Below are positions 24,686-56,654 of a stretch of 64,000 bases of DNA, piece by piece. Both the position numbers and the translations under genes were made by a program. The stretch lies in the NCBI GenBank assembly GCA_040755835.1, contig JBFMAB010000122.1, positions 43,180 to 107,179 of the forward strand. The letters are read 5' to 3'. The notes under the pieces are model-generated. The model had not been told where the DNA came from. It searched no databases and worked only from the letters and a program-made list of their open reading frames with translations. This DNA is from Myxococcota bacterium (lineage in GTDB: Bacteria > Myxococcota > Myxococcia > Myxococcales > Myxococcaceae). Within the stretch, counting starts at the first letter, position 1, and the number at the start of each line of letters is the position of its first letter.

Positions 24686-24746
24686 GGCGGTGTCGGGAAT
24701 ATCACCCTCCCGTCGCGCGCGCGGCGGGACTAAGTCACCCATTCCC

Positions 24747-38664: not shown

Positions 38665-39615
38665 TCAAATCTTCACGTCCACCAGCGCGCCCTGCCGCAG
38701 CTCGAGCATGTACTGCTCGGTGTACTTCTCGAGCTGCGCGCGCAGCATCTTTTCGCGCAGCTTCTCCTTCACGTCCTCGAACGGCGGCGCCGCGAGCGCG
38801 CGTCGCTCCTCGACGAAGATGACGTGCCAACCGAACTTCGTGCGGACCGGGTCGGCGACCCCGCCGACGGGCGTGGTGAAGGCGACCTTCTCGAACTCCG
38901 CGACCATCACGCCGCGGCGGAAGAAGCCCAGGTCGCCGCCGTCCGCGGCCGACGGTCCTTCGGACTTCTTCTTCGCGAGCTCGGCGAAGTTGACGCCCGG
39001 CTTGCGCGCCTCGGCGGCGAGCGCCTCGGCCTTCAGGCGCGCGGCCTCGACCTGCTCGGGCGTCGCCTTCGGGCTCACCTGCACGAGGATGTGCCGCGCG
39101 TGCACCTCGGCGTCCTGCGCCTCGTCGTGCGCCCACTTCGCGTACTCGGCCTTCAGGTCCTCGTCGGCGATCTTCACCTTCGCGCGGACCTTCAAGTTCA
39201 CCAGCTTCATCCGCGCGAGGTGCTTGCGCATGAAGGTCCGGTACGTGGACATCGTGTACCCCTCCTGCGCCAACAGCTGCTCGAACTGCTCGCTGGTGAT
39301 GTTGTTCTGCTTCTTCACGTCCTCCACCGAGAGGTCGATCTCCGACTCGGCCACCTCGATGTTCAGCTCGCGGATTTGCGCCTCCATCAGCTTCTCGCCG
39401 ATGAGCATGTCGAGGGAGCGCTTCATCACCTGCTCGCGCAGCTCGCTGCGCTTGTCCGCAGGCGCGCCCTTGAGGCCCGCCAGCTCGGGCGCCGCGCGCG
39501 CCTCGACCTCGCTCAGCGTGACGATGTCGTCGTTCACCACCGCCGCCACGCGGTCCACCAGCTCGGCGTGCGCCGCGCCGGCGACGAGGCTGATCAACAG
39601 GACGAAACGCTTCAT
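38665..39615 (-). CDS. surA: SurA-like periplasmic chaperone / parvulin-type PPIase
   Basis: Signal peptide. SurA N-terminal domain followed by a PpiC rotamase domain (HILV...FGWHVI). Confidence 0.8.
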   Translation of the reverse strand: MKRFVLLISLVAGAAHAELVDRVAAVVNDDIVTLSEVEARAAPELAGLKGAPADKRSELREQVMKRSLDMLIGEKLMEAQIRELNIEVAESEIDLSVEDVKKQNNITSEQFEQLLAQEGYTMSTYRTFMRKHLARMKLVNLKVRAKVKIADEDLKAEYAKWAHDEAQDAEVHARHILVQVSPKATPEQVEAARLKAEALAAEARKPGVNFAELAKKKSEGPSAADGGDLGFFRRGVMVAEFEKVAFTTPVGGVADPVRTKFGWHVIFVEERRALAAPPFEDVKEKLREKMLRAQLEKYTEQYMLELRQGALVDVKI

Positions 39616-39702
39616 GGTGTCGCGCCCTTAGCACGCGGAGAGCGGGCCGCGACAGCGGCTGTTAACGGCGCGGGCGGGTGCGGCATCCTCTGGGCTGAAG
39701 CG

Positions 39703-40296
39703 ATGGCGCTCCCGGCGAGCATCGAGCGGCGGCCCCAGGGCGGCGAGCGCCCGGACGGGGCTGCGCGCTGGCGGCCGTGGGTCGCCGCCGCGCGCGCAGG
39801 CGATCGGCAGGCCTTCGCGCAGCTGCACGCGCACTTCGGGAGGCTGGTGCACGCCGTCGTCATCACCCGCGTCGGCGCTTCCGACGCGAAGGACCTCGTG
39901 CAGGACGTGTTCCTCACCATGTGGCAGAAGCTGGAAACGCTGGAAGACGACCAGGCCTTCCCGGCGTGGCTGACGCAGCTCGCGCGCCACCGGGCCGCGA
40001 AGGCGCTGCGCGACCGCAAGCCGACGGAGACGCTGGACGACGAGCCGGGCCTCGCCGCGCCCGACCGCTCCGGGGCGCCCGACGCGCAGAAGGTCCTGAA
40101 GGCGCTCATGGCGTTGCCCGAGGCGTACGCGGAGCCGCTCGCGATGCGCCTCGTCGAAGGCATGAGCGGCCCGGAGATCGCCGAGCGCACCGGCCTCACC
40201 CCGGGCAGCGTCCGCGTCAACCTGCACCGCGGCATGAAGCTGCTCCGCGAGAGGCTGGGTCTCGCGCCCGCCGAGGAGGGGCCCGGCGATGAGTGA
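39703..40296 (+). CDS. ECF (sigma-70 family) RNA polymerase sigma factor
   Basis: Region 2 (DLVQDVFLTMW) and region 4 (GMSGPEIAERTGLTPGSVRVNLHRG). Confidence 0.85.
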   Translation: MALPASIERRPQGGERPDGAARWRPWVAAARAGDRQAFAQLHAHFGRLVHAVVITRVGASDAKDLVQDVFLTMWQKLETLEDDQAFPAWLTQLARHRAAKALRDRKPTETLDDEPGLAAPDRSGAPDAQKVLKALMALPEAYAEPLAMRLVEGMSGPEIAERTGLTPGSVRVNLHRGMKLLRERLGLAPAEEGPGDE

Positions 40297-41290
40297 CTAC
40301 CTCTTCGACAAGACGGGCCGCGACGAGGACGTGGAGCGCCTCGAGGACGCGCTCGGCCGGTTCGCCTACGACGGCGAGGCGCCCGAGCTGCCGGACGCCA
40401 GGCGCCGCGAGGAGCCCGTCGCGCCGCTGCCGGCGCGCGCGCGCCGCGACCGCGACGAGCTGCCGGTGCGAGCGCCGTTGCTTCCCGGCTTCCGCTGGCC
40501 GCTCGCCGCCGCGCTCGCCTTCGGCCTCGTCGCCGCGCTCTTGTCGTACTCGGCCATCAAGAAGCGCGAGGCCGACGTGCGCAGGGGCTGGAACCTCGTG
40601 CCGGTGGTGGTGGCCGCCGTCGACGTGTCCGAGGGCACGGTGGTGACGATGGAGATGCTGAGCCAGCGCAGCGTGCCGGAGCAGTTCGTCACCTCGTCCG
40701 TCGTGAAGCCGGACTCGGCGTCGTACATCGTGAACCAGAAGGTGCTGGTGCCGCTGGCCGCGGGCGACCCGCTGTTGTGGAGCCAGTTCGAGACGACGCG
40801 GGCCTCCGAGCGCCTGTCGACGAAGGTGCAGAAGCGCGCGCGCGCCATCTCCATCGAGGTGAAGGGCGTCACCTCGGTCGGCGGGTGGATTCGCCCCAAC
40901 GACCACGTCGACATCATCGGCAGCTTCAAGGACCCGCAGTCCGGCGAGCAGGTCGCGGTGACGCTGATGCAGAACGTGGTGGTGCTCTCCACGGGGAAAA
41001 TCACCGGCACCACCAACGTGAACCTCGTCCCCGAGGGCCAGCGCGACTACGGGGACGTCTCGCTGCTGGTGCTGCCCGAGGAGGCCGAGATGCTGGTGCT
41101 CGCGCAGGAGCTGGGCGCGCTCACCTTCACCCTGCGCAACGAGGAGGACCTCGACGTCCTCGCCGAGCGCGGGCGGGCCACCATCAACACGCTCCTCTCC
41201 GGCGAGCGCACCAGGGTGCTCCAGCAGAAGCGCTTCAACACCATCCAGGTGATTCGCGGCGCGGCCCGCCCAACGCCCGAGAAGCCGTAG
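40289..41290 (+). CDS. anti-sigma factor N-domain fused via one TM helix to a periplasmic CpaB-like (SAF + RcpC) domain
   Basis: The start overlaps the sigma stop (gATGAgtga) with GAGGAGG RBS. Acidic cytoplasmic N-terminus. TM helix LAAALAFGLVAALL. CpaB-like periplasmic domain. Confidence 0.75.
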   Translation: MSDYLFDKTGRDEDVERLEDALGRFAYDGEAPELPDARRREEPVAPLPARARRDRDELPVRAPLLPGFRWPLAAALAFGLVAALLSYSAIKKREADVRRGWNLVPVVVAAVDVSEGTVVTMEMLSQRSVPEQFVTSSVVKPDSASYIVNQKVLVPLAAGDPLLWSQFETTRASERLSTKVQKRARAISIEVKGVTSVGGWIRPNDHVDIIGSFKDPQSGEQVAVTLMQNVVVLSTGKITGTTNVNLVPEGQRDYGDVSLLVLPEEAEMLVLAQELGALTFTLRNEEDLDVLAERGRATINTLLSGERTRVLQQKRFNTIQVIRGAARPTPEKP

Positions 41291-42153
41291 CGTCTTCCGC
41301 GCCGGTTAACGCTTTCGGCGGCCCCGGGCTCCTCCTGGGCATGCTGAAAGGAAGAGCCCCCCTCCTCGTCGCCGCCGTCCTCGCCGCCGCCGCCTTCGCC
41401 GTCGCCTACAGCGCCATCAAGAAGCGCGAGGCCGACGTGCGGAAGGGCTGGAACCTGGTGCCGGTGGTGGTCGCCGCGGTGGACGTGTCCGAGGGCACCG
41501 TCGTGACGATGGAGATGATCAGCCAGCGCTCCATCCCCGAGCAGTTCGTCACCTCGTCCGTCGTGAAGCCGGACTCCGCGTCGTACATCGTGAACCAGAA
41601 GGTGCTGGTGCCGCTGCAGGCGGGCGACCCGCTCCTGTGGAGCCAGTTCGAGACGACGAAGGCGTCGGAGCGGCTGTCCACCAAGGTGATGAAGAAGACG
41701 CGCGCCTTCACGCTCGAGGCGAAGCCGGTGACGGCGGTGGGCGGCTGGGTGCGACCGAACGACCACATCGACATCCTCGGCACCTTCAAGGACCCGAACA
41801 CCGGCGAGCAGGTCGCACTGACGCTGCTGCAGAACATCATCGTGCTGGCGACGGGGAAGATCACCGGCACCACCAACGTGAACCTGCTGCCGGAAGGGCA
41901 GCGGGACTACAACAACGTGTCGGTGCTGGTGCTGCCCGAGGAGGCCGAGGTGCTGATGCTCGCGCGGGAGCTGGGCGAGCTGAGCTTCTCCTTGCGCAAC
42001 GAAGAGGACCTCGACGTGCTCGATGAGCGCCGGCAGACGACGGTCAGCACGCTGTTCGACGGGAAGCGGCTGCAACTCCTCATGGAGAAGCGGAAGAACA
42101 ACATCATCGACGTCATCCGCGGCAACGTGAAGCAGTCGGAGAGCGCGCCGTGA
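40530..42153 (+). repeat. tandem gene duplication (two ~750-bp CpaB-domain copies)
   Basis: Long nucleotide identity runs, for example cgcgaggccgacgtgcg.aggggctggaacct.gtgccggtggtggt.gccgc.gt.gacgtgtccgagggcac.gt.gtgacgatggagatg. Confidence 0.7.
41341..42153 (+). CDS. CpaB-like (SAF + RcpC) protein, tandem paralog of the upstream gene
   Basis: Signal-anchor. About 80% identical to residues 90-333 of the upstream protein. Confidence 0.8.
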   Translation: MLKGRAPLLVAAVLAAAAFAVAYSAIKKREADVRKGWNLVPVVVAAVDVSEGTVVTMEMISQRSIPEQFVTSSVVKPDSASYIVNQKVLVPLQAGDPLLWSQFETTKASERLSTKVMKKTRAFTLEAKPVTAVGGWVRPNDHIDILGTFKDPNTGEQVALTLLQNIIVLATGKITGTTNVNLLPEGQRDYNNVSVLVLPEEAEVLMLARELGELSFSLRNEEDLDVLDERRQTTVSTLFDGKRLQLLMEKRKNNIIDVIRGNVKQSESAP

Positions 42154-42293
42154 TGGCGCTGCTCGCGGCGGCGTGCGCCGGCGGCGCGGTGTTCTCGGCG
42201 TGGCTCGCGTTCCTGGCGCGGGAGACGTCCGCGCCCCCGCCGGAGGTGAAGGCCAGGCTCCGGCGTCGCTTCCGTCCGCGCCTGGTTCGCTAG
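42153..42293 (+). CDS. small hydrophobic protein (46 aa)
   Basis: The start overlaps the upstream stop (TGATG). Uniformly high GC3. MALLAAACAGGAVFSAWLAFLARETSAPPPEVKARLRRRFRPRLVR. It is below the ORF-track size cutoff. Confidence 0.35.
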   Translation: MALLAAACAGGAVFSAWLAFLARETSAPPPEVKARLRRRFRPRLVR

Positions 42294-42429
42294 CAGGTGG
42301 GCGGGTTCATGATCGCCATGTACCTGCTGCCCGTCTTCGCCATCGCCGAGCGCGCCGGTGGCGGTGTTCGCGAGTGAACGGCGGGTGGCCATCGCCGACA
42401 TCGAGCGCGTGGCCGAGGTGGCTCGAGCG

Positions 42430-43407
42430 CTACGGCTCGTGTGACTGGCTCGACGTCGGGCGGCCGGTCACCTGCTGCAGGACGCCGGCGTTCACCTTCA
42501 CCTCGGCCTTCGCGCGCAACGCCTGCACGTAGGCTTTCTGCGCCTCGGAGCGAAGCTGGCCGACGAGCTTCCCCTCGATGGCGGCGCGGACCTCGGCGAG
42601 TTCCTTCTTGCGCGCGGGCTTCTTCTCCACCACGCGGAAGAGGTGGAAGCCGTATTCGGTGGACACGACGTCGCTCGTCCCGCCGGGCGGCAGCTTGAAG
42701 ACGACCTCGTCGAAGGCCGCCGGCATGGTGCCGCGCGCGAAGAAGCCGAGGTCGCCGCCCACCTTCGCGTCGGGTGACAGCGAGTAGCGCCGCGCGAGGT
42801 CGCCGAACTTCTTGCCCTGCCACAGCTGCTGCTGGATGCGCTTCGCCTCGTCGAGGCCCCTCACGACGATCTGCAGCGCGTGCACCTGCTCGGGCTCCTG
42901 GAAGTCGTCGGCGTGCTCGTCGAAGTACCGGCGGATCTGCTCCTCGGTGACGGCGACGCGGGCGAAGACCTCCTGGTTCAGAAGCTTCTCGATGGTGAGC
43001 TGCTCGCGGGTGGTGCGGGTCAGCTGCGCGCGCGTGGTGCCGCTCTGCTCGAGCGCCTCGTCGAAGGTGCCGGCGGGGTACTCGCTGGCCAGCGCGAGCA
43101 CGCGGCGGTCGACCTCGTCGGGCGTGACGGTGACGCTCGCGGCGCGCGCGGCCTGCAGCAGCAAGGCGTGCTCGATGAGCGTTTCGAGCAGCGTCTGCTT
43201 GTACCGCTCGATCTGCTCGGGGCTTCGGGGGGCGACGCCTTCCATCGCCTGCGCTTCGCGGGTGAGCAGCCGCTCGAAGTCCTTCCGGCCGATGACCTCC
43301 CCGTTGACGGTGGCGACGACGTCCGGGTTTTCCTGCGGCTGATGTGGCTGCGGGCAGGCAGCGAGCGCGACGGCGGCGGCGAGCAGAGAGGTCAGGCGGA
43401 GAATCAC
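42430..43407 (-). CDS. parvulin-type (PpiC/PrsA/PpiD-like) PPIase lipoprotein
   Basis: GTG start giving MILRLTSLLAAAVALAAC (lipobox). PpiC domain (HALQIVV...YGFHLFRV). Confidence 0.75.
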   Translation of the reverse strand: MILRLTSLLAAAVALAACPQPHQPQENPDVVATVNGEVIGRKDFERLLTREAQAMEGVAPRSPEQIERYKQTLLETLIEHALLLQAARAASVTVTPDEVDRRVLALASEYPAGTFDEALEQSGTTRAQLTRTTREQLTIEKLLNQEVFARVAVTEEQIRRYFDEHADDFQEPEQVHALQIVVRGLDEAKRIQQQLWQGKKFGDLARRYSLSPDAKVGGDLGFFARGTMPAAFDEVVFKLPPGGTSDVVSTEYGFHLFRVVEKKPARKKELAEVRAAIEGKLVGQLRSEAQKAYVQALRAKAEVKVNAGVLQQVTGRPTSSQSHEP

Positions 43408-43623
43408 GGTGTGCCATCGCCTAGCACGACTGCGCCCCGGGGGCAGGCGCGCGCTCGCGTTGACGGTGCTCCCCGGGGGCGCCGACGAACGACGCCGGCG
43501 AGGTGGCACGCGGCATGCGCCGCCCGGCGCCGCCAGCAGCGAGGACCCCCGCGCGCCGACGCCGGCGCGCGCACCTCCGCCTGAAATCCTGCTGCCCGGG
43601 GACTTCGTTTCGACGCTGCCCGC

Positions 43624-45582
<1,959 letters not shown>

Positions 45583-45631
45583 GTGCGGTCTCCTCGACGA
45601 GGCGACACGGGCTCGCGCGCGGCGTTGCACG

Positions 45632-46477
45632 TCACGGCGCGTCCGTCCCCAGCAGCCGCGCCATCGACAGCTCGAGCCCCGAGCGCATCGCGCGCAAGAG
45701 GCTGTCCAGCTGCGCGTCGTCCAGCGAGAGCCGCGCGGCGAGGCCGGCGCGCGTCGCGACGAGCAGCGCTTCGTGCACCTTCGAGAGCCAGCGCGACACG
45801 GTGGACTTGTTGACGCCGTAGATGTCGCCGATGCGCTCGAGCGGCAGCCCGTCGAGCGCCTGCAGCCGCAGCACGTTGCGCTCCCGCGGCGTCAGCGTGC
45901 GCAGCGCCGCCTGGAAGGCCTCGCTGAAGACGGCCCGGTGCTGCGTCCGCACCGCGGTCAGCTCCGGGTCCGGCGCGGCCAGGGGGAGCGCCTCGAGCGC
46001 CTCGTCCTCGGCGGCGACGAGGCGTGCGCCCGGGCGGCGGGCGTTGAGCGCGGTGCGCACCGCCGCGGCGCGCAGCCAGCTGATGAGCGGTCCGTCGCCG
46101 TCGTACGTCGCGATGCGCGGCGCCTCGCCCACCAGCAGCTTCTCGCGCAGCTGCTGCAGCACCTCGTCGATGAACTCCGGCGCGGCATCGACGCGGGCGA
46201 TGGCGGCGGAGAGCCGCGAGAGGTAGCGCGCGTCGAGCTCCCGCAGCGCCACCGCGTCTGCGCGCGCGCACGCCCAGGCGAGGAAGAGGTCCTCGGCCGG
46301 CAGCGCGGTCAGCTCGCCCTTGGCTCGCGGCGCCAGCCAGGTGACGAAGGCGACGTCGTCCATCACGACGGACGGGAAGGCGTCACGTGCACGGCCGAGC
46401 AGCGCGCGCAACGCGTCCTCCAGCCCGTCGAGCGAGCGGCCGGGGGGCGCGTGCGGGACGAAGGCCTCGGCGAGCAC
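45632..46477 (-). CDS. ECF-type sigma factor with N-terminal and C-terminal extensions
   Basis: Region 2 (DLFLAWACARADAVALRELDARY, GPLISWLRAAAVRTALN) and region 4 (LQALDGLPLERIGDIYGVNKSTVSRWL). Confidence 0.75.
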   Translation of the reverse strand: MLAEAFVPHAPPGRSLDGLEDALRALLGRARDAFPSVVMDDVAFVTWLAPRAKGELTALPAEDLFLAWACARADAVALRELDARYLSRLSAAIARVDAAPEFIDEVLQQLREKLLVGEAPRIATYDGDGPLISWLRAAAVRTALNARRPGARLVAAEDEALEALPLAAPDPELTAVRTQHRAVFSEAFQAALRTLTPRERNVLRLQALDGLPLERIGDIYGVNKSTVSRWLSKVHEALLVATRAGLAARLSLDDAQLDSLLRAMRSGLELSMARLLGTDAP

Positions 46478-46501
46478 GCGCGAGAGTTTACCGTGCGCGC
46501 G

Positions 46502-46936
46502 TCACTTCGTTCCCGGCTTCATCGGGACGCGCTCGCCGGTGAGCGCCGTGCGCACCGTCACCACCGCGCGCTCCGCCAGGATGTTCGGGTCCTGCTCGTT
46601 GCGCAGCGTCGCCGACAGCTGGCCCGACGCCTTCGCCAGCGCGAGCAGCTCGGCCTCCTCCGGCAAGACGAGGAGGCTCAGCTGCCGGGGCTCGCCGGGC
46701 GCGGGTGACGCATTGGCGAGGACGATGACGTTCTGCAGCAGCGTGACGGCGACGAGTCGCTTGTCGTCGTTGAGGACCGCCACGATGTCGACGTGGTCGT
46801 TCGCGCGCAGCACCGCGCCGCCGACGACGGCCGACGTCTCGAGGGTGTAGGCGCGCGCCTTCGGCTGCACGCCGAGGGACGTGGGCGCGGGCGAGGCGGC
46901 GAGGACGATGACGGCGGCGGTGACGAGCGGGTGCAT
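46502..46936 (-). CDS. secreted CpaB C-terminal (RcpC-like) domain protein (144 aa)
   Basis: AGGAG RBS. Signal peptide MHPLVTAAVIVLAASPAPTS. Homologous to the C-terminal third of the two CpaB-like proteins (HVDIVAVLND...LLQNVIVLA...LLVLPEEAELLALA...TLRNEQD). Confidence 0.65.
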   Translation of the reverse strand: MHPLVTAAVIVLAASPAPTSLGVQPKARAYTLETSAVVGGAVLRANDHVDIVAVLNDDKRLVAVTLLQNVIVLANASPAPGEPRQLSLLVLPEEAELLALAKASGQLSATLRNEQDPNILAERAVVTVRTALTGERVPMKPGTK

Positions 46937-47325
46937 GCAGGCTCCTGGTGACGGCGGGTTTCCGAAGGGACACAGGCGCGCGGGAAACGTTGCGCGCCGC
47001 CGGCACGCCCGCCGTTTCAAGACGTTGTCTTCGGCCTGGCAGGGCGGTGTCCGAGCGACGGTGAGGAAGCGTGGGAGACGGCCGTGACGGGCCTGCTCCG
47101 GGTCGTGACGTACCCGGAGGACGACGGGGGCGCGTCGTGGCTGTGGGGCTCGAGCGACCGCGACACCGGCCTGTGGAAGGTCGTCCCGACGTCCGTCGGC
47201 CTCGTGCGCCCCGGGCGCGACGGCGCCGCGTGAGTCCGGGTAGGTCGAAGGACTACGGCGCATCGTCGGCCTCCGCGACGCTATCGTCATCGTCCGCTTT
47301 CCGGGGGGGCGAGGGAGACGAATCG

Positions 47326-49524
47326 GTGTCGCGAGACTTCGAGACCATCACCGCAGCCAACCCCATCGGACCCGCGCGCGGCGACGCGTGCCTCATCGTG
47401 GTGAGCACGCCGACGCGCAGCGAGCTGGGGCGGGTGCTGGTGCTGTCGAAGTCGCTGACGCTCGGGCGCGGCCGCGAGGCGGACCTCTCGCTGTCGGACG
47501 CGTCGATGTCGCGCCGCCACGCGCGTCTCACCCTGACGGAGGCCGGGGTGCAGCTCGAGGACCTGGGCTCCCGCAACGGTTGCTTCGTCAACGGGGTGCG
47601 GGTGAGCCAGGTCGACTTGCGCCACGGAGACCAGCTTCGGCTCGGCGCCACCACCTTGCACTTCCACGCGCAGGATGGGGCCGGCCCCGGGCCGGGCGCG
47701 GAGGCGCTCACCCAGTCGGGCGTCGCGCAGTGGGACTACGACGTCGCGCTCGGCGCGGTGCGCTGGTCCCGGCAGGCGGAGACAGCCCTCGAGTTGCCGA
47801 AGGGCGCGCTGGGCGACGAGGCGCGGCCGCTGCGTGAGCTGCTCCACGCGGCGCAGTGGGCGGAGGTGGCGACGGCGCTCGAGGCGCCGGGGCAGGCGCC
47901 GGTGGTGGAGGTCGACGCGCGCCTCGCGCTCGCGCCCGGGACGTGGTGGGTGCGGCTGCGCGGGCAGGTGCTGCGCGGCGAGGACGGCCGGCCCCGCCGC
48001 ATCAGCGGCACCGCGGTGAACGTGACGGCGGCGAAGCACCGCGAGCACGCGGTGGCCCGCGCCGGCCAGTTTTTCGAGAATCTGCCCGAACCGGTCATCG
48101 TCGCCGACGCCGACGGGCGCGTGGTGGAGCTCAACGGCGCGGCGCTCGATGCCTTCGCGGTCCAGCGCGGCGAGGCGCGGGGGCGCGACGTCTTCGCGGT
48201 GGCGGGCGCTTCGCCGGGCGAGGGCGTGCGACAGGAGGCCCTCGAGGCCCTGGCGAAGTCCGGCGCATGGACCGCCTCGCTCCAGTTGCGCGTCGCCGGC
48301 CAGGCGCGCCCACACCGGGTGACGGGTTTCCGGCTGCAGGACGGGGCCGAGGCGCTGGGCCTGGCGTTCCTCTTCCGAGACGTGTCCGAGCAGCACCGGT
48401 GGGAGGCGCAGCTCGACCAGATGGAGCGGATGGCGTCTCTGCATACGCTGAGCGCCGGCATCGCCCACGAGCTGAACAACCCCTTGTCCTACGTGCTGGC
48501 GAACGCGCGCGTGGCCCTCGAGCGGCTCCAGGGACATCCCGACGAGGACCTGCGCGAGGCCCTGGCCGAGTTGGTGGAGGGGAGCGAGCGCATCGCCGGC
48601 ATCGTGGGGGACCTCCGGGTCTTCGCGCGGGGCGATGCGGAGTTCGGAACACATCCGACGGACCTCGGCGCCGTCGTCGAGGCCGCGAGGAAGTTGACGG
48701 CGAAGTGGGTGGACGCGCGGGCGTCCCTCACCGTCGAGCTGACCGCGTCGCCGCTGGTGGAGGCGCACGAGCGGCGGCTCGAGCAGGTGCTGGTGAACCT
48801 GCTCATCAACGCGGCGCAGGCCATTCCCGAGCGCGCCGAGGGGAAGGGCCGTATTCTGGTGCGGGCCCAACCGAGTGACGGCGGCGTGGCGCTCGAGGTG
48901 GTCGACGACGGCGAAGGCATGACGCCCGACGTGCAGAGGCGCATCTTCGAGCCGTTCTTCACCACGCGGCCGGTGGGCGTCGGCACGGGGCTGGGGCTGG
49001 CGGTGTGTCACGGGCTGGTGCGCTCGATGGGCGGAACGCTGACGGTGCGGAGCGCGCCGGGCGAGGGAAGCACCTTCCGCCTGTGGCTCCGGGTCGCCCA
49101 GCCGCGGCGCGTCGAGGCGCCCACTCCGGCGCCCTGCTCGGGAGGCGAGCGGAAGCTGAAGGTGCTGCTCGTCGACGACGAGCCGCTGGTGCTCAAGGCG
49201 CTTGCGCGGATTCTCAAGGCGCATGAGGTGACGACGGTGTCCTCGGTGCGCGCCGCCCTCGAGCACTTCTCGGCCGGGGCGCGCTTCGACGTGCTGTTGT
49301 GCGACCTGATGATGCCGGAGCAGACGGGCATCGACCTCTACGAGCGCCTGAAGGTGGAGGTGCCGGAGCAGGCGGCGCGCATGGTGTTCCTGACGGGCGG
49401 CGCCTTCACCGAGCGCGCGGACCGCTTTCTCAAGTCCGTGCGCAACCGGCAGCTCATCAAACCCGTCGACGCGACCGTGCTCCGGCAGACGGTGTTCGAG
49501 GTAGGCGGCGCCCTGCAGGCGTAG
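47326..49524 (+). CDS. FHA - PAS - histidine kinase - receiver hybrid sensor kinase
   Basis: GAGGGAG RBS with GTG start.
FHA domain (LTLGRGREADLSLSDASMSRRHARL...GSRNGCFVNG).
PAS region.
H-box SAGIAHELNNPL.
N/G boxes.
C-terminal receiver domain (LLVDDE...CDLMMPE). Confidence 0.8.
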   Translation: MSRDFETITAANPIGPARGDACLIVVSTPTRSELGRVLVLSKSLTLGRGREADLSLSDASMSRRHARLTLTEAGVQLEDLGSRNGCFVNGVRVSQVDLRHGDQLRLGATTLHFHAQDGAGPGPGAEALTQSGVAQWDYDVALGAVRWSRQAETALELPKGALGDEARPLRELLHAAQWAEVATALEAPGQAPVVEVDARLALAPGTWWVRLRGQVLRGEDGRPRRISGTAVNVTAAKHREHAVARAGQFFENLPEPVIVADADGRVVELNGAALDAFAVQRGEARGRDVFAVAGASPGEGVRQEALEALAKSGAWTASLQLRVAGQARPHRVTGFRLQDGAEALGLAFLFRDVSEQHRWEAQLDQMERMASLHTLSAGIAHELNNPLSYVLANARVALERLQGHPDEDLREALAELVEGSERIAGIVGDLRVFARGDAEFGTHPTDLGAVVEAARKLTAKWVDARASLTVELTASPLVEAHERRLEQVLVNLLINAAQAIPERAEGKGRILVRAQPSDGGVALEVVDDGEGMTPDVQRRIFEPFFTTRPVGVGTGLGLAVCHGLVRSMGGTLTVRSAPGEGSTFRLWLRVAQPRRVEAPTPAPCSGGERKLKVLLVDDEPLVLKALARILKAHEVTTVSSVRAALEHFSAGARFDVLLCDLMMPEQTGIDLYERLKVEVPEQAARMVFLTGGAFTERADRFLKSVRNRQLIKPVDATVLRQTVFEVGGALQA

Positions 49525-49535
49525 CGGGCCGCGCG

Positions 49536-50519
49536 TCAACGCGACGGCGGCGGCGGCGGCGCGGCGATGAAGCCGGGCTGCGGCGAGGATGGCGCGGCGG
49601 CGGGCGCCTTCGGGTCCACGACGATGGCCGCGAGCGCCGACTCGTTGACCTCGAAGTGGGCCTGCTTCTTCAGGCGCTCGAGCAGTGCGCGGAAGCGGTC
49701 CTGCCTGGTCTCGTTGAGCAGCACCTGCTGAATCGACGGGCGCGCCTGCTCCAGCGACAGGTTGAGGGCGATCTGCCGGCCCTGCAGCTTGACGATGTGA
49801 AAGCCCTTGTCCGTCTCGACGAGGTCGGGCGCGACGTCGCCGACCTTCTGCAGCGCGGCGGCGGCCTTCACCAGCGCGTCGCCGTACTGCTTCGCGAGCT
49901 CCTCGTCGGCGAGGAAGCGGAGGTCGCCGTCGAGCTCCCTCGAGCGCGGATCCTCCGAGCGCTCGCGGGCCAGCTTCGCGAAGGCGGCGTAGTCGAGCGG
50001 CGCCAGCGCCTTCACCTGCGCGAGGACCTCCTCGGCCTGCGCGCGGTGCTCCTTCGTGAAGAAGATGTGCGAGAGCCGGGTCATCGCGGGCTTCACGTAG
50101 TCGGACTGGTGCGCCTGGTAGTACTCGGCGACCTGCGCGTCGGTGACCTGGCTCGCGTTGCCTTCGATTTCCTTCTTGAGCAGCAGCTGCACCATGACGC
50201 GCTTGGCGGTCTCGACGACCTCCGGGTCGTTCGCGAGGCCCTGGCGGACGGCTTCCTGCGAGAGGAGCTCGAAGCGGACGAGGCCGTCGACGTATTCGCG
50301 GCGCTGCTCGACGGTCTGGTAGCGCGCGCGGGCGTACGGGTTCATCTCGGCGAAGCGCTGGTTGAGCTCCCGGTCGGTGATGGTGTCGCCGCCGAAGCGG
50401 GCGACCCAGGTGCCGCCGGTCGCGCCGGGCACCGGGCGGCGGCGGAAGTCGACCTTCGCGGTGCCGGTCTCGTTGCAGGCGGTGAGGAGGAGGGCGGTGA
50501 CGAGGGCGAGGTGACGCAT
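49536..50519 (-). CDS. parvulin-type PPIase lipoprotein (PpiD/PrsA-like)
   Basis: Lipobox LLLTAC. Rotamase region (HIFF...KGFHIVKL). Confidence 0.75.
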   Translation of the reverse strand: MRHLALVTALLLTACNETGTAKVDFRRRPVPGATGGTWVARFGGDTITDRELNQRFAEMNPYARARYQTVEQRREYVDGLVRFELLSQEAVRQGLANDPEVVETAKRVMVQLLLKKEIEGNASQVTDAQVAEYYQAHQSDYVKPAMTRLSHIFFTKEHRAQAEEVLAQVKALAPLDYAAFAKLARERSEDPRSRELDGDLRFLADEELAKQYGDALVKAAAALQKVGDVAPDLVETDKGFHIVKLQGRQIALNLSLEQARPSIQQVLLNETRQDRFRALLERLKKQAHFEVNESALAAIVVDPKAPAAAPSSPQPGFIAAPPPPPSR

Positions 50520-53558: not shown

Positions 53559-55787
53559 CTACGGCTGCGCGACGCCCAGCGTGCCCGCCAGCGCGTTCAC
53601 CACCGGCGCGGGGAAGCGGAAGCGCGTCTTGAAGCTGATCAGCGCCGGCGCCGCCACCTGCGGCAGCGGCTTGGCCTGGCCGACGTGCATCGCGAAGGCG
53701 AAGGCCACGCACAGCGCCTGCCCGACCGCGCCGTCGGGCGCCGAGGCGGGGAAGTCCAGCAGCGGGCTGATCAGCGGCTCGTACTCGTCCCACGCGGGCC
53801 CCAGCACGCCCGACAGCGCCTCGATGGTGGGCACGTCCCAGGGGGGCCGGCCATCGCGCAAATTCGCCGCCACCAGCGCCGACGTCGCCGCCTTCAACCG
53901 CCGCACGTCGCCGGGCAGCGCGCCGAGCCGCTCCGCCGTCGCCAGCGCCACCGATACGAGCTGCCACGCCTGCCGGCCGCGGTCGCCCAGCAGCGCGAGC
54001 AGCGTGTCCACCACGCGCAAGGCGGCGAGCGCCTCCCTGCCGTCGTCCGCGCGGGGTGCGTCGAGCGGCGCCGGCGCTTCAAGGAAGTGGCCCGCGACGG
54101 CCGGGGGGGCCGACGGGGCGGGCGTCATGGCGCGCGGCGCGGCGCCGGTGAAGATGCCGCTGCTGCCCGATGCGGGCGCACTCGCCGGGCCGGCGGTCCG
54201 CATCAGCGAGGACGGGCTGCTGCCGCGCTCGATCCAGTCGGCGACGTCGTCCTCCTCGCTGCCCGTGTAGAAGCGGTTGCGGGTGCGGCGAATCGCCACC
54301 TCGCCGCCACGCATCGCGACGATGCTCTTGACCCCCGACGCGGCCTTGAGCTGCTCCAGCGCCGCCGTGTCCATGGGGTTCTTCATGGCCACCACGAGCT
54401 GCGTGCCGCCTTTGAGCGCCAGCGGCACCAGGTCCAGCGCGCGGGCCAGCTCGAGCGGCACCCGCGCGAGCGCCTCGGGCTGCGCCGCCATGTCGCCCAG
54501 CTTCTTCGCGGTGACGGCCGGCGTCTTCGTCAGCTCGGCCAGGGTGGCGACGATGACGTCCTCGTCGATGCCCAGCGACTGGAGCGCGTCCGACAGCGTG
54601 CCGCCGTAGATGCCGACCTGCTCGAGCGCCTCGTCGAGCTGCGCTCTGGTCAGCAGCTTCTTCTCCACCAGCGCCGCGCCCAGCCTCAGGTCGCGAGGGC
54701 CGTGCCCGTCGTCGACGCCGTTGTCCGGCGCGGGCCGGGGGCCCTCGGGGGCCGCCGCCGGGCGCACTGCCTCGAGCTCGGTCCGCGACATCTTCCGCGT
54801 GGCGATGCGCGCCACCACCGCGCTGCCGGGCGGCGTCACCGACGGGCGCTCACTGCCCGGGCTGCCCGGCACCGGCGCCAGCGTCAGCGTGTGCCCGTCG
54901 CGCGGGAGCGAGGCGGCGATGCTGACGCGGTCCGCGCAGGCCCGGGAGAACAGCCGCGCAATGTCCAGCTCCGGCGTCTTCCAGCCCGCCTTCGTCGAGG
55001 CCTGCTGCAGCACCGCGTCGACCTCCTCCAGCGAAGGCCGGTTCTCCTGAGCGGGCGCCAGCATCTGCATCAGCAGCGACGCGTAGGGCTCGGGCACCTG
55101 CTTGAGCGCGTCGCGCGACAGGCCCGTGAAGCGCTGGCAGGTGACGAGCGCCTGCGCGGCGTCGCCGGTGGAGAACAGCGGGCGCCCCAGCGCGAGCTCG
55201 TACAGCACCAGCCCCAACCGGAAGACGTCGGTGGCCGGGCCGACCTGCTCGGCCAGCTGCTCCGGCGCGAGCGTCTGCGGCTCGGCGCGCGCGGGCCCCA
55301 GCGCCGGCGTCATGCCCGCGGCCGTCGCCACCGCCGCGTCCAGCAGGTACACCTCGCCCTGCGGCGTCAGGAGCAGCGTCGACGCGCACACGTCGCCGTG
55401 CACCACCGGCGGCGTACGCGCGTGCAGGTCCGCCAGCAGGTGCGCCGCGCGGCCCACCACCGCCAGGCCCTCGGCCGGCGCGATGAAGCCCCGGCGCTGC
55501 GCGAGCGCGTTCATCACGTGCCGCAGCGACTCGCCTTCGATGAGCTCCTGGACCAGGTACGTCACGCCGGCCGCCTCGCCCACCTCGTACAGCTCCGGCA
55601 GGCCCGGCCCGCGCGGCCACTGGTGCGTCGGCCCCAGGTACCGGCTCGCGAAGTCGCCGTTCTGCGCCCACGGCGAGACGAGGCGCTTGAGCACCACCGG
55701 CCGCGACGGGTTGTCCTGCATTCCGACGAAGGCCTCGAGGACGCTCGCCGCTTCGCTCAACCGTCGGGCGATGCGGTAGGTGCTCAT
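53559..55787 (-). CDS. Ser/Thr pseudokinase-like domain fused to a T2SS-E N-terminal (MshEN-like) domain
   Basis: Kinase-like N-terminus with degenerate catalytic loop (VHGDVCASTLLL replaces HRDLKPxN). Middle LGAALVEKKLLTRAQLDEALEQ... resembles the GspE/MshE N-domain. Confidence 0.7.
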   Translation of the reverse strand: MSTYRIARRLSEAASVLEAFVGMQDNPSRPVVLKRLVSPWAQNGDFASRYLGPTHQWPRGPGLPELYEVGEAAGVTYLVQELIEGESLRHVMNALAQRRGFIAPAEGLAVVGRAAHLLADLHARTPPVVHGDVCASTLLLTPQGEVYLLDAAVATAAGMTPALGPARAEPQTLAPEQLAEQVGPATDVFRLGLVLYELALGRPLFSTGDAAQALVTCQRFTGLSRDALKQVPEPYASLLMQMLAPAQENRPSLEEVDAVLQQASTKAGWKTPELDIARLFSRACADRVSIAASLPRDGHTLTLAPVPGSPGSERPSVTPPGSAVVARIATRKMSRTELEAVRPAAAPEGPRPAPDNGVDDGHGPRDLRLGAALVEKKLLTRAQLDEALEQVGIYGGTLSDALQSLGIDEDVIVATLAELTKTPAVTAKKLGDMAAQPEALARVPLELARALDLVPLALKGGTQLVVAMKNPMDTAALEQLKAASGVKSIVAMRGGEVAIRRTRNRFYTGSEEDDVADWIERGSSPSSLMRTAGPASAPASGSSGIFTGAAPRAMTPAPSAPPAVAGHFLEAPAPLDAPRADDGREALAALRVVDTLLALLGDRGRQAWQLVSVALATAERLGALPGDVRRLKAATSALVAANLRDGRPPWDVPTIEALSGVLGPAWDEYEPLISPLLDFPASAPDGAVGQALCVAFAFAMHVGQAKPLPQVAAPALISFKTRFRFPAPVVNALAGTLGVAQP

Positions 55788-56033
55788 GCGCCAGGACGCT
55801 CTCTTGTCGGACCGGAAAACTTCCCCGGGATTGTACGCCGTGGCGCCGCGCGCGAGAGGAAAATCGTCACCCGTTTCCACGGGTAGGACACGCGCGCCTT
55901 GTCTTGAGGGGAGGGGGCGACGAGAGTCTCTGCCGGTGGCCGCGAATGGGGCCGCCGGGTCGGAACACCAAACATGGCGTGCGCGCCGGCCGGCCGGGCC
56001 CGCGCGGGCGAACACCCTGGAGCACGAGACGTG

Positions 56034-56654
56034 ATGAATCTGCGAACGACGGCGTTGGCGATGCTGGTGCTGGTGGCGACGGCGTGCGGGCCGGTCGAGT
56101 ACCGCCTCGACGAGACGAAGGGCATTCCCCCGGTGACGGGCAGCACCGAGGTGCAGCTCGGCGGCTCCTTCACCTGCGGCCAGCCCATCACCTCGGGCCA
56201 GTACACCGTGACGACGAAGGTGGTGACGGGCGGCTGCGAGCTGACCTTCGACCAGGACGTCGAGGTGCTCAAGGCGAGCGACTACCAGAACCTCCCCGAC
56301 CTGCAGGCCGCGTCGAACCTGCTGCAGCGCGTGGAGCTGACGGTGAAGAAGCTGGCCTTCACCGACGGGACGGGCGCGGCGCTCGACCTCCAGACGCGCA
56401 TCACCTCGGCGACGCTGTCGGTGAACGGGCAGGTGGTGGCCGAGAAGGCGACGCTGTCGAAGCTGCCGGCGGTGGTGTCGCTGCAGGGCGACGCGCTCTC
56501 CAGCGTGAAGGCGAAGGTGGACGCGCGACAACCCGCGAGCGTGCGCGCGCGCTGCGTGGTGGTGCTGCCGGACATGCCGGCCCCGCCCGACAGGCTGAAG
56601 ATCGACTACGACGCGCAGCCCGCCATCATCCTCGGGCCTGGCAAGATCCTCTGA
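56034..56654 (+). CDS. hypothetical lipoprotein
   Basis: MNLRTTALAMLVLVATACGP lipobox. Confidence 0.6.
   Translation: MNLRTTALAMLVLVATACGPVEYRLDETKGIPPVTGSTEVQLGGSFTCGQPITSGQYTVTTKVVTGGCELTFDQDVEVLKASDYQNLPDLQAASNLLQRVELTVKKLAFTDGTGAALDLQTRITSATLSVNGQVVAEKATLSKLPAVVSLQGDALSSVKAKVDARQPASVRARCVVVLPDMPAPPDRLKIDYDAQPAIILGPGKIL

What the first reader, a model, noticed from the sequence alone, without database searches (positions are those of the whole stretch)
38665..50519. Mirrored 12-kb envelope-signalling locus: two ECF modules, three CpaB-type proteins, an FHA hybrid histidine kinase and three parvulin PPIase lipoproteins
The arrangement is surA-like PPIase | sigma1-antisigma::CpaB-CpaB' -> <- PpiC lipoprotein <- STPK::antisigma <- sigma2 <- RcpC | FHA-PAS-HK-REC -> <- PpiC lipoprotein. 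Each convergent unit ends in its own parvulin-type PPIase. An FHA domain, which is a phospho-Thr reader, sits on a hybrid histidine kinase next to the anti-sigma Ser/Thr kinase. That is a plausible STPK-to-two-component relay. The symmetry and domain recruitment suggest a duplicated periplasmic folding- or stress-sensing system that I cannot match to a described one.
Basis: inference. Interest (0 to 1): 0.8.

Follow-up and report, generated by a model that had tools for sequence, protein, structure and literature searches.

The report
Two pilus-derived sigma-factor sensor modules, juxtaposed
The genes are really there, but the "mirrored" 12-kb locus is a one-genome mosaic of separately inherited units; the interesting parts are two self-contained sigma-factor switches whose outward-facing sensor domains are copies of parts of a Tad-type pilus machine like the one myxobacteria use to kill prey.

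Summary
In detail: all eleven genes and nearly all stated domains are present at 38665-50519. There is one correction and one omission. The SurA-like protein is not a lipoprotein. The Ser/Thr kinase carries three secretin N-domain (RcpA_N-type) repeats outside the membrane.

The interpretation of one mirrored, duplicated folding-stress system is not supported.
- In relatives the two PpiC genes lie next to each other.
- The RcpC-only/sigma2/kinase trio is a conserved operon found elsewhere in relatives' genomes. In the closest relative, homology to the window stops at 43552.
- The FHA kinase occurs in only one other locus, without that trio.
- Each sigma module has its own conserved ECF-type promoter. 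Neither motif precedes a PPIase gene or the FHA kinase.

What is notable:
- Module 1 (sigma1, then an N-motif::TM::CpaB protein, then a second CpaB) is kept in 39 of 39 related loci.
- Its ectodomain is 72-97% identical to the same genome's CpaB from a Kil-like Tad cluster. This is held by purifying selection, not gene conversion.
- The only predicted sigma1 targets seen are its own operon and the second CpaB.

I propose that both modules monitor the Tad/Kil alignment complex. This is inferred, not shown.

The parts
38665..39615 (-). G2, a periplasmic SurA-like parvulin PPIase (SurA_N + Rotamase). It has a signal peptide and is not a lipoprotein. It belongs to a rhodanese-pdxA-surA backbone unit.
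   Evidence: Pfam. PdxA and rhodanese lie upstream. The same three genes occur in L002, L007, L017, L045, L048 and L050.
39661..39688 (+). Sigma1-type ECF promoter, GTTAACG-N16-GCATCC, about 15 nt before the sigma1 ATG.
   Evidence: Conserved upstream of sigma1 in 40 loci from all genomic contexts. It is one of only two GTTAAC sites in the 64-kb window.
39703..40296 (+). G3, ECF sigma factor sigma1 (197 aa).
   Evidence: Sigma70_r2 and Sigma70_r4_2. Only the ECF superfamily model TIGR02937 is above its cut-off.
40289..41290 (+). G4, the putative membrane anti-sigma factor. It has a conserved N-terminal motif (MSDYL[WF]DKxGxDxxVExLExxL..YDG..P), a Pro/Arg-rich linker, a TM helix, and a CpaB/RcpC ectodomain (SAF + RcpC + conserved C-terminal tail).
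   Evidence: Sigma1 lies directly upstream in 39 of 39 loci, and in 31 of them the sigma1 stop lies within about 11 nt of, or overlaps, the G4 start. A profile of G4 homologues hits solved RcpC 9gzr at E = 4.8e-9. The public annotation P0004 starts at an internal codon and hides the motif.
41305..41332 (+). Second sigma1-type promoter, GTTAACG-N16-GGCTCC, 8 nt before the G5 ATG.
   Evidence: The same motif precedes G5 orthologues in 21 (+1 in L047) loci, including loci where G5 is displaced by several kb.
41341..42153 (+). G5, a second TM-SAF-RcpC protein without the N-terminal motif. It is a predicted sigma1 target.
   Evidence: It is 72% identical to the G4 ectodomain.
42430..43407 (-). G6, a PpiC/SurA-N-type parvulin lipoprotein. 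It is the first of an ancestral tandem pair with G11. The start codon is approximate.
   Evidence: It is directly adjacent to the G11 orthologue in L017, L035, L042, L045, L048 and L050.
43552..43623 (.). Right-hand boundary of the relocated G9-G8-G7 unit. Nucleotide homology to the closest relative (L090) ends at 43552.
   Evidence: blastn shows 87.6% identity between L090 207-3177 and window 46534-43552. The flank beyond that point is unrelated.
43624..45582 (-). G7, a zinc-finger anti-sigma motif (C-x24-H-x3-C-x2-C) + Hanks Ser/Thr kinase + TM + three RcpA_N-type (pil_N) periplasmic domains.
   Evidence: P0272 is this protein. A profile of the repeats hits RcpA 8odn residues 41-96 at E = 3e-12.
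45604..45628 (-). Sigma2-type ECF promoter, GCAACG-N14-GTGTC, before the kinase gene.
   Evidence: Conserved at the same place in L087, L088 and L089.
45632..46477 (-). G8, sigma2 of the TIGR03001 Myxococcales family. Its region 2 is divergent, with no Pfam r2 hit.
46502..46936 (-). G9, a secreted protein with the RcpC domain only. It has no SAF domain and no C-terminal tail.
   Evidence: It is 70% identical to its orthologues in L087 and L089, and 45-47% identical to G4, G5 and the Kil-cluster CpaB.
46969..46993 (-). Sigma2-type ECF promoter before G9.
47326..49524 (+). G10, an EspA-like hybrid histidine kinase (FHA-PAS-PAS-HisKA-HATPase-REC). It is a bystander unit. The start codon is approximate.
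   Evidence: The NCBIfam EspA model scores 568 bits against a cut-off of 1400. It is 73% nt-identical to the gene in the same slot of L007, which lacks G7-G9.
49536..50519 (-). G11, a PpiC-type parvulin lipoprotein, the second of the ancestral tandem pair.

Best explanation
The 12-kb region is a lineage-specific juxtaposition of five separately inherited units:
1. rhodanese-pdxA-surA.
2. sigma1 / G4 / G5.
3. A tandem pair of PpiC lipoprotein genes, G6 and G11.
4. G9 / sigma2 / G7, inserted between the PpiC pair.
5. An EspA-like FHA hybrid kinase, G10, in the same slot.

Units 2 and 4 are autonomous, self-activating ECF sigma switches. Their periplasmic input parts come from the Tad-pilus alignment complex.

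**Module 1.** Sigma1 is probably held at the membrane by the short conserved N-terminal motif of G4 (inferred). The G4 ectodomain is a near-copy of the CpaB of the organism's Kil-like Tad machine. When freed, sigma1 transcribes its own operon and G5, another CpaB copy (inferred from conserved promoters).

**Module 2.** Sigma2 is probably held by the zinc-finger anti-sigma motif fused to the kinase G7 (inferred). The G7 ectodomain is three copies of the secretin N-domain. In Pseudomonas that domain is the docking site for the RcpC/CpaB ring. G9, a lone RcpC domain, is co-expressed with it.

**Proposed function.** I propose that both modules read the assembly or occupancy state of CpaB-ring and secretin-N contacts in the envelope and adjust transcription accordingly. 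I do not think they sense protein-folding stress. The PPIases and the FHA kinase are neighbours, not parts.
For: **Mosaic origin**
- The closest relative with context, L002, has G6 | PilZ | G11 and no G7-G10.
- L007 has PilZ plus an FHA kinase in that slot.
- Six further genomes (L017, L035, L042, L045, L048, L050) have G6 and G11 directly adjacent.
- The RcpC-only / sigma / kinase::pil_N operon sits at unrelated sites in L087, L089 and L090; L088 keeps the sigma-kinase pair, with no RcpC-only gene called.
- Homology to L090 breaks at window 43552.

**Autonomy of the two modules**
- GTTAAC-N17-xxTCC occurs only twice in the window, before sigma1 and before G5.
- In 1.39 Mb of related loci, 63 of 67 GTTAAC sites are before sigma1 or G5 orthologues. 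None is before the Kil-cluster CpaB and none before G6/G11 orthologues in those loci or surA/G6/G11 in the window.
- GCAACG-N14-GTGTC occurs exactly twice in the window, before G9 and before G7. It is conserved at those places in L087, L088 and L089.

**Module 1 is a conserved unit**
- Sigma1 lies directly upstream of the G4 orthologue in 39 of 39 loci, mostly with start and stop overlapping.
- The N-terminal motif is conserved in all 31 aligned homologues.

**Tad origin of the sensor domains**
- In 28 genomes, a CpaB followed by two TadB/C-like genes and an FHA gene is 72-97% identical to the same genome's G4-type ectodomain. That gene order matches the gene content of Kil cluster 2 in PMC8460266.
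- Codon identity at identical residues is only 0.70 against a baseline of 0.55. This indicates long-term purifying selection rather than recent gene conversion.
- G4 homologues match solved RcpC.
- The G7 repeats match RcpA residues 41-96. That domain was shown to bind the RcpC dodecamer (PMC12307814).

**The kinase architecture is a family**
- The zinc-motif-kinase-pil_N architecture recurs in about 20 clusters at 50% identity and in cultured Archangium, Hyalangium and Pyxidicoccus.
- Cultured Archangium gephyra has a sigma / pil_N-only / kinase::pil_N variant.
Against: - No binding, phosphorylation or expression was measured. The anti-sigma role of the G4 N-terminus rests on gene order and conservation only. 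It matches no known anti-sigma family, even at E <= 10.
- The AlphaFold model of G4 was unusable, with mean pLDDT 53.
- The Kil-type cluster is identified by gene context, not by comparison with the M. xanthus proteins.
- All close relatives are metagenome-assembled genomes.
- Regulons were read from +/-10 kb around each locus only, so other sigma1 or sigma2 targets, including PPIases elsewhere, are not excluded.
- surA, sigma1-G4-G5 and G6-G11 do stay together across one clade (15, 11 and 10 of 39 loci). A looser functional tie between module 1 and the PPIases cannot be ruled out.
- G9 lacks the C-terminal tail that corresponds to the RcpC beta-hairpin used to dock RcpA_N. Its proposed pairing with the G7 ectodomain is therefore uncertain.
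- A second pil_N protein (L086) is followed by a PAS hybrid kinase. Some link between this kinase family and hybrid histidine kinases therefore remains possible.
Confidence: 0.63

Rival explanations
1. The locus is one integrated, duplicated periplasmic folding- or stress-sensing system. Each ECF unit controls or depends on its own parvulin PPIase, and the kinase G7 signals to the FHA domain of G10.
For: The arrangement in this window is as described. EspA-type FHA kinases are thought to work with Ser/Thr kinases in M. xanthus (PMC4320627). G9 and G10 are divergently transcribed, about 390 nt apart.
Against: - G7-G9 and G10 are absent from, or separate in, every relative examined.
- G6 and G11 are an ancestral adjacent pair.
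- No sigma1 or sigma2 promoter motif precedes any PPIase gene or G10.
- There are four kinase genes in 64 kb, so chance adjacency is likely.
Confidence: 0.07
2. Module 1 is functionally tied to the three PPIases in this clade only. The parvulins would fold or chaperone CpaB-type or secretin proteins whose state module 1 reports. Module 2 and G10 would still be later insertions.
For: surA | sigma1-G4-G5 | G6-G11 is kept in L002, L007, L017, L035, L042, L045, L048 and L050. G5-G6-G11 stay together even when separated from sigma1-G4 (L055, L077). Of the 39 loci, 15 hold surA, 11 hold G6 and 10 hold G11.
Against: The synteny is confined to one clade at 63-87% identity and may simply be inherited gene order. 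In the other clade, module 1 sits among unrelated genes (L001, L005, L011, L018 and others). surA-pdxA is a housekeeping pairing. No sigma1 promoter motif precedes the PPIase genes.
Confidence: 0.15
3. G4 and G5 are simply alternative structural CpaB subunits of a Tad/Kil pilus. Sigma1 is an ordinary transcription factor for them. The N-terminal extension of G4 has a structural or targeting role, not an anti-sigma role.
For: G4 and G5 pass the TIGR03177 CpaB cut-off. Their ectodomains are up to 97% identical to the Kil-cluster CpaB. The N-terminus matches no anti-sigma family.
Against: Start/stop-overlapping sigma and single-pass membrane protein genes in 39 of 39 loci is the hallmark arrangement of sigma/anti-sigma pairs. 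The short cytoplasmic motif is conserved, and duplicated in some orthologues. No pilus genes lie near module 1 in any context.
Confidence: 0.15

Closest known systems
RcpC-RcpA Tad pilus alignment complex of Pseudomonas aeruginosa (PDB 9gzr and 8odn; PMC12307814)
   Same: G4 and G5 are TM-anchored SAF+RcpC proteins homologous to RcpC (E = 4.8e-9). The three G7 ectodomain repeats are homologous to RcpA residues 41-96 (E = 3e-12). That is the Ig-like N-domain shown to bind the RcpC dodecamer.
   Different: Here the domains are attached to signalling proteins: a sigma-linked membrane protein and a Ser/Thr kinase. They are not encoded in a pilus locus. No secretin, ATPase or platform gene lies within the window. 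G9 keeps only the RcpC domain.
Kil Tad-like prey-killing system of Myxococcus xanthus (KilB = CpaB homologue; PMC8460266, PMC12075869)
   Same: Relatives carry a CpaB followed by two TadB/C-like genes and an FHA gene, like Kil cluster 2. That CpaB is 72-97% identical to the G4-type ectodomain of the same genome.
   Different: G4 and G5 lie outside that cluster. G4 is sigma-coupled and G5 is driven by a sigma1-type promoter. The two Kil papers searched mention no ECF sigma or CpaB paralogues. Orthology to M. xanthus KilB was not tested by sequence.
Kinase-linked ECF sigma factors (EcfP/PknT of Vibrio, EcfK/PknS of Xanthomonas; groups ECF43, 59-62, 217, 267, 283; PMC8999054, PMC7826278)
   Same: G8 is a sigma factor with a divergent region 2, encoded next to a transmembrane Hanks kinase. 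It is a member of TIGR03001.
   Different: G7 carries a complete zinc anti-sigma motif at its N-terminus, whereas kinase-linked groups typically lack an anti-sigma factor. G8 keeps acidic residues (EFID) at the position where ECF43 has the phospho-acceptor STTA motif (read from the sequence). The ectodomain is pilus-derived.
EspA/EspC hybrid histidine kinases with PktA5/PktB8 in M. xanthus development (PMC4320627)
   Same: G10 has the EspA architecture (FHA-PAS-PAS-HK-REC), and EspA is its best NCBIfam match.
   Different: The score is 568 bits against a cut-off of 1400, so G10 is a paralogue. No espB-like gene lies nearby. The only related gene found (L007) is not next to a kinase.
Classical envelope-stress sigma-E/RseA-type ECF pairs
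   Same: Sigma and a single-pass membrane partner are translationally coupled, and an AAC-type -35 promoter provides autoregulation.
   Different: The cytoplasmic part of G4 is a motif of about 30 residues with no match to RseA_N, zf-HC2 or any other anti-sigma family. The periplasmic part is a pilus protein paralogue.

Membership tests
ECF sigma / membrane anti-sigma pair (module 1) | The sigma factor has only regions 2 and 4. | tested here: met
   Sigma70_r2 and Sigma70_r4_2 hits. TIGR02937 scores 73.8 bits against a cut-off of 42.9.
ECF sigma / membrane anti-sigma pair (module 1) | A co-transcribed single-pass membrane partner lies immediately downstream. | tested here: met
   There is an 8-nt overlap in the window. 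Sigma1 is directly upstream in 39 of 39 loci.
ECF sigma / membrane anti-sigma pair (module 1) | The partner has a recognisable anti-sigma domain. | tested here: not met
   No Pfam family matches G4 residues 1-95, even at E <= 10. Only a conserved new motif is present.
ECF sigma / membrane anti-sigma pair (module 1) | An autoregulatory ECF-type promoter is present. | tested here: met
   GTTAAC-N17-xxTCC is conserved before sigma1 in 40 loci. Dependence on sigma1 itself was not tested.
ECF sigma / membrane anti-sigma pair (module 1) | The partner physically sequesters the sigma factor. | not testable with these tools
   This needs a binding assay or a multimer structure prediction.
CpaB/RcpC Tad alignment-complex protein (TIGR03177) | The protein scores above the curated model cut-off with TM + SAF + RcpC. 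| tested here: met
   G4 scores 178 bits and G5 176 bits against a cut-off of 71. G9 scores 53 bits and fails.
CpaB/RcpC Tad alignment-complex protein (TIGR03177) | The gene is encoded with Tad secretin, ATPase and platform genes. | tested here: not met
   No such genes lie in window 21-63 kb or near module 1 in any relative.
CpaB/RcpC Tad alignment-complex protein (TIGR03177) | The protein forms a periplasmic ring that docks the secretin N-domain. | not testable with these tools
   The precedent is PMC12307814. The AF2 monomer model was too poor to use.
TIGR03001 Myxococcales sigma family / kinase-linked ECF | The protein scores above the curated cut-off. | tested here: met
   G8 scores 224.6 bits against a cut-off of 154.6.
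Phosphorylation-activated ECF43-type sigma (EcfP-like) | The acidic DAED motif in region 2.2 is replaced by Ser/Thr, and no anti-sigma factor is co-encoded. | tested here: not met
   G8 reads EFID at that position (read from the translation). G7 carries C-x24-H-x3-C-x2-C, conserved across the family.
EspA histidine kinase (NF052573) | The protein reaches the equivalog score cut-off. | tested here: not met
   It scores 568 bits against 1400. The domain architecture is the same.
   No GTTAAC or GCAAC-N14-17-GTGTC site precedes G2, G6 or G11.
Kil system CpaB (KilB) orthology of the relatives' cluster CpaB | The sequence is orthologous to M. xanthus KilB. | not tested
   Only the gene context (CpaB, two T2SSF genes, an FHA gene) was compared with the description in PMC8460266.

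The most novel reading that the evidence does not exclude
The two modules together form an assembly checkpoint for a predatory Tad (Kil-like) machine. The anti-sigma factor G4 is a molecular mimic of the alignment-ring subunit. It joins or competes for the CpaB ring and secretin, and so reports ring occupancy to sigma1. Sigma1 then supplies a spare ring subunit, G5. In parallel, the kinase G7 displays three decoy secretin N-domains that capture free CpaB-type C-terminal hairpins and so gate sigma2. This would be the first transcriptional circuit shown to sense the build state of a Tad pilus through copies of its own parts. It would also offer a route to the unanswered question of how Kil assembly is signalled.
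Probability: 0.2. Interest if true: 0.8.

Novelty: new variant of a known kind. Interest (0 to 1): 0.5.

Why it matters
The locus as a whole is a genomic accident and should not be pursued as a single system. Its two ECF modules are different.

[quoted passage not shown] The anti-sigma-like ectodomain has been kept at up to 97% identity to the Kil-type CpaB over long evolutionary time. Such conservation is hard to explain unless both bind the same partners.

The authors of the Kil system papers state that the signalling that triggers assembly at prey contact is unknown. These modules are concrete, testable candidates. Each comes with predicted promoters, predicted interaction surfaces and a cultured-organism variant in Archangium gephyra.

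A practical point also follows. Public annotation often starts the G4-type gene at an internal codon, which hides the sigma-coupled motif.

Tried and rejected
- **Single-protein genome scan.** Scanning genomes with the G7 C-terminus found nothing. The word-indexed protein search found one hit only. The exhaustive HMMER search and a full-length query were needed.
- **Concerted evolution.** Gene conversion between G4-type and Kil-cluster CpaB genes was suggested by an interleaved NJ tree. I rejected it. Codon identity at identical residues is 0.70 within a genome, 0.67 between genomes and 0.55 at baseline. Also, 25 of 28 G4-type sequences are closer to another G4-type than to their own genome's cluster CpaB.
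- **Compositional island.** G7 and G8 are 75-76% GC against 66-71% for G4-G6. However, sigma1 and the Usp gene are also about 75% GC, so this is not diagnostic.
- **AlphaFold2 of G4 with 31 homologues.** Mean pLDDT was 53. I did not use the model and ran no fold search.
- **Sigma-70 promoter and terminator scan.** It gave nothing informative.
- **ECF43-type activation of sigma2 by phosphorylation alone.** I rejected this because the acidic residues are kept and the kinase carries a zinc anti-sigma motif.
- **Literature.** I found no description of a CpaB-type anti-sigma factor. The supplement of the ECF classification paper is not held.
- **Cultured Myxococcus carriers of module 1.** I looked but found only metagenome-assembled genomes among the best 80 loci and in the 90% clusters.

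Full report
**1. What is in the sequence**

The window is about 72% G+C, so I chose reading frames by codon-position GC and then scanned them against Pfam and NCBIfam.

- G2, 38665-39615(-): SurA_N + rotamase, with a cleavable signal peptide.
- G3, 39703-40296(+): an ECF sigma factor.
- G4, 40289-41290(+): overlaps the G3 stop by 8 nt. It consists of an N-terminal extension, a TM helix, and SAF and RcpC domains. It passes the CpaB model TIGR03177 (178 bits, cut-off 71).
- G5, 41341-42153(+): a second TM-SAF-RcpC protein (176 bits).
- G6, 42430-~43407(-) and G11, 49536-50519(-): parvulin proteins with lipoboxes.
- G7, 43624-45582(-): a full zinc anti-sigma ligand set (C-x24-H-x3-C-x2-C), a Hanks kinase domain and a TM helix.
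- G8, 45632-46477(-): a member of TIGR03001, 'Myxococcales family 1' (224.6 bits, cut-off 154.6).
- G9, 46502-46936(-): a signal peptide plus an RcpC domain only.
- G10, ~47326-49524(+): FHA-PAS-PAS-HisKA-HATPase-REC. Its best match is EspA, but far below the cut-off (568 bits against 1400).

Two corrections follow. G2 is not a lipoprotein. G4's N-terminus matches no known anti-sigma family, even at E <= 10.

The flanks hold housekeeping and signalling genes, including three more Ser/Thr kinase genes. They hold no Tad or Kil pilus genes.

**2. Synteny shows the locus is a mosaic**

I collected 85 related loci with up to 10 kb of flank on each side (where the contig allowed), using G4 homologues. 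I mapped all window proteins onto them by tblastn.

Of 39 non-redundant loci carrying a G4-type gene:
- 39 have the sigma1 orthologue directly upstream. In 31 of these the sigma1 stop overlaps, or lies within about 11 nt of, the G4 start.
- 21 have a second CpaB downstream.
- 15 have a surA orthologue, 11 have G6 and 10 have G11.
- 1 has a G10-like gene.
- None has G7 or G8.

In one clade the backbone is rhodanese-pdxA-surA | sigma1-G4-G5 | G6-G11, with the two PpiC genes directly adjacent (L017, L035, L042, L045, L048, L050). The slot between them holds PilZ in L002, PilZ plus an FHA kinase in L007 (73% nt identity to G10), and G7-G8-G9 plus G10 only in this window. In the other clade, sigma1-G4(-G5) sits among unrelated genes.

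I then traced the kinase side. RcpC-only -> sigma -> kinase::pil_N is itself a conserved same-strand operon.
- L087 comes from the same MAG as L006 and L012. Its flanks are a HAD hydrolase and RecJ.
- L089 comes from the same sample as L002.
- L090 is the closest relative, at 87.6% nt identity over window 43552-46534.
- L088 has sigma -> kinase::pil_N.

None of these loci has a PPIase, an FHA kinase or the sigma1 module nearby. In L090, homology to the window ends at 43552, between G7 and G6. The mirror is therefore produced by inserting one operon, next to an unrelated hybrid kinase, into a variable slot between two old PPIase genes.

**3. Each sigma module has its own conserved promoter, and these ignore the neighbours**

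*Sigma1.* Aligning the DNA upstream of sigma1 orthologues from all contexts reveals GTTAAC(G)-N17-(G)C[AT]TCC(T) about 10-15 nt before the start codon.
- In the whole 64-kb window GTTAAC occurs twice: at 39661 before sigma1 and at 41305 before G5. The full pattern is expected 0.06 times by chance.
- In 1.39 Mb of related loci GTTAAC occurs 67 times. Forty sites are before sigma1. Twenty-one, plus two sites in L047 (one before its sigma1 remnant, one before its G5 orthologue), are before G5 orthologues, even where G5 has moved several kb away. None is before the Kil-cluster CpaB, none before a PPIase gene, and 4 lie elsewhere.

*Sigma2.* GCAACG-N14-GTGTC is conserved before the RcpC-only gene and again before the kinase gene, in the window (46969-46993 and 45604-45628) and in L087, L088 and L089. 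These are the only two exact matches in the window.

Both motifs have the AAC-type -35 element typical of ECF promoters. That they depend on sigma1 and sigma2 is an inference from position and conservation.

**4. The sensor domains come from the Tad alignment complex**

*CpaB side.* Many relatives carry a further 'solo' CpaB. In L063 it is followed by two T2SSF (TadB/C-type) genes and an FHA gene, and it is preceded by another ECF sigma plus a 614-aa zinc-finger anti-sigma protein. That gene content matches Kil cluster 2 of M. xanthus, where the CpaB homologue KilB is essential for prey lysis (PMC8460266).

In 28 genomes holding both genes, the G4-type ectodomain is 72-97% identical to the genome's own cluster CpaB. 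The figure is 82-85% in the window's nearest relatives and 91-97% in eleven genomes.

An interleaved tree suggested gene conversion, but the data do not support it. Codon identity at identical residues is 0.70 within a genome, 0.67 against other genomes and 0.55 at baseline. The similarity is therefore maintained by purifying selection. A profile of G4 homologues matches solved RcpC (9gzr, E = 4.8e-9).

*Secretin side.* A profile of the G7-family repeats matches RcpA residues 41-96 (8odn, E = 3e-12) and another Tad secretin (8jvb). In P. aeruginosa, RcpC forms a TM-anchored periplasmic dodecamer. That ring binds exactly this Ig-like RcpA N-domain, using a C-terminal beta-hairpin and an oligomerisation linker (PMC12307814).

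G4, G5 and the cluster CpaB share an almost invariant C-terminal tail (..ERTxVLQQKRFNTIQVIRG). G9 lacks both the SAF domain and that tail.

*The kinase family.* The zinc-motif-kinase-TM-pil_N architecture is a real family.
- It spans about 20 clusters at 50% identity.
- It has members in cultured Archangium, Hyalangium and Pyxidicoccus.
- In A. gephyra the small accessory gene encodes a lone pil_N domain instead of a lone RcpC domain.

**5. Most likely mechanism**

*Shown:*
- the domain content;
- the conserved operons;
- the conserved promoter motifs and their restricted distribution;
- the homology to RcpC and RcpA_N;
- the strong conservation of the G4 ectodomain relative to the Kil-type CpaB.

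*Inferred:*
- The short N-terminal motif of G4 sequesters sigma1.
- Release of sigma1 drives sigma1-G4 and G5.
- The G7 zinc motif sequesters sigma2, with kinase activity controlling release. G8 keeps acidic residues (EFID) where ECF43 sigmas carry the phospho-acceptor, so activation purely by sigma phosphorylation is less likely (PMC8999054).
- The signal for both modules is the state of CpaB-ring and secretin-N contacts in the periplasm.

I put about 0.65 on the mosaic-plus-autonomous-modules picture as a whole. I put about 0.2-0.35 on the specific idea that the modules monitor the Kil-like machine.

**6. Comparison with known systems, and novelty**

Kinase-linked ECF groups are known (PMC7826278). 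EspA-type FHA kinases are known, and PpiC and SurA parvulins are ordinary. I found no description of an ECF partner with a CpaB ectodomain, or of kinases with secretin N-domain ectodomains. I looked in the ECF classification paper, two ECF reviews and two Kil papers.

I therefore class the modules as new variants of known kinds. The 12-kb 'system' is not a real unit.

**7. Caveats**

- All close relatives are metagenome-assembled genomes.
- Orthology of the cluster CpaB to M. xanthus KilB rests on gene context.
- The AlphaFold model of G4 was too poor to use.
- One short contig (L086) places a PAS hybrid kinase directly after a pil_N protein. A looser association between this kinase family and hybrid histidine kinases is therefore not excluded.

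Noticed in passing
Alignment A1: P0012, P0017, P0024, P0026, P0043, P0048, P0053, P0095: In some G4 orthologues the N-terminal DYLWDKSG..LE..L..YD..P motif is duplicated in tandem, giving proteins of 360-380 aa. Two copies might contact two sigma domains. This is unexplained.
   Followed up: no
window 40289-41290 versus P0004; cluster members: The NCBI annotation starts this gene at an internal codon (MLPGFRW..., 270 aa). Several orthologues are likewise called at 273-286 aa instead of 335-338 aa. The sigma-coupled motif is therefore missing from many public protein records.
   Followed up: partly
L063 7071-9549 (also L020, L024, L056, L059, L070, L071, L076, L078): The Kil-like cluster itself is preceded by a different ECF sigma (26% identity to sigma1). 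In L063 this sigma is followed by a 614-aa zinc-finger anti-sigma protein directly upstream of the CpaB-TadB-TadC-FHA genes.
   Followed up: partly
L003 3484-12276: In one close relative, a 2930-aa RHS/YD-repeat toxin gene follows the G4 orthologue in place of G5.
   Followed up: no
L086 176-2701: A truncated TM + 3x pil_N protein (43% identity to the G7 C-terminus, ORF open to the contig edge) is followed on the same strand by a PAS-HisKA-HATPase-REC hybrid kinase.
   Followed up: partly
P0375: A 604-aa kinase carries SAF and ChapFlgA domains. This is another Ser/Thr kinase with a CpaB/FlgA-type periplasmic domain.
   Followed up: no
L091 4608-7410 (Archangium gephyra CP043495.1): A cultured-organism variant of module 2: sigma (304 aa), then a pil_N-only protein (114 aa), then kinase::pil_N (469 aa). 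It is a possible genetic model.
   Followed up: partly
window 24684-28103 (+): A 1139-aa protein combines a Ser/Thr kinase domain, an nSTAND1 NTPase domain and an FGE-sulfatase domain.
   Followed up: no
window 53559-56531 (-) and L002 10604-12814: A kinase fused to an MshEN domain is conserved downstream of the Usp gene in both the window and L002. MshEN is my own recollection as a c-di-GMP-binding domain of pilus ATPases.
   Followed up: no
window 31908-32885 (-): A protein with two PG_binding_1 domains and a CHAP domain, probably a cell-wall hydrolase.
   Followed up: no
L002 6441-7025 and L007 ~9500-10100: A PilZ-domain gene occupies the slot between the two PpiC genes in the two nearest relatives. 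It is absent from the window, where G7-G9 sit instead.
   Followed up: partly
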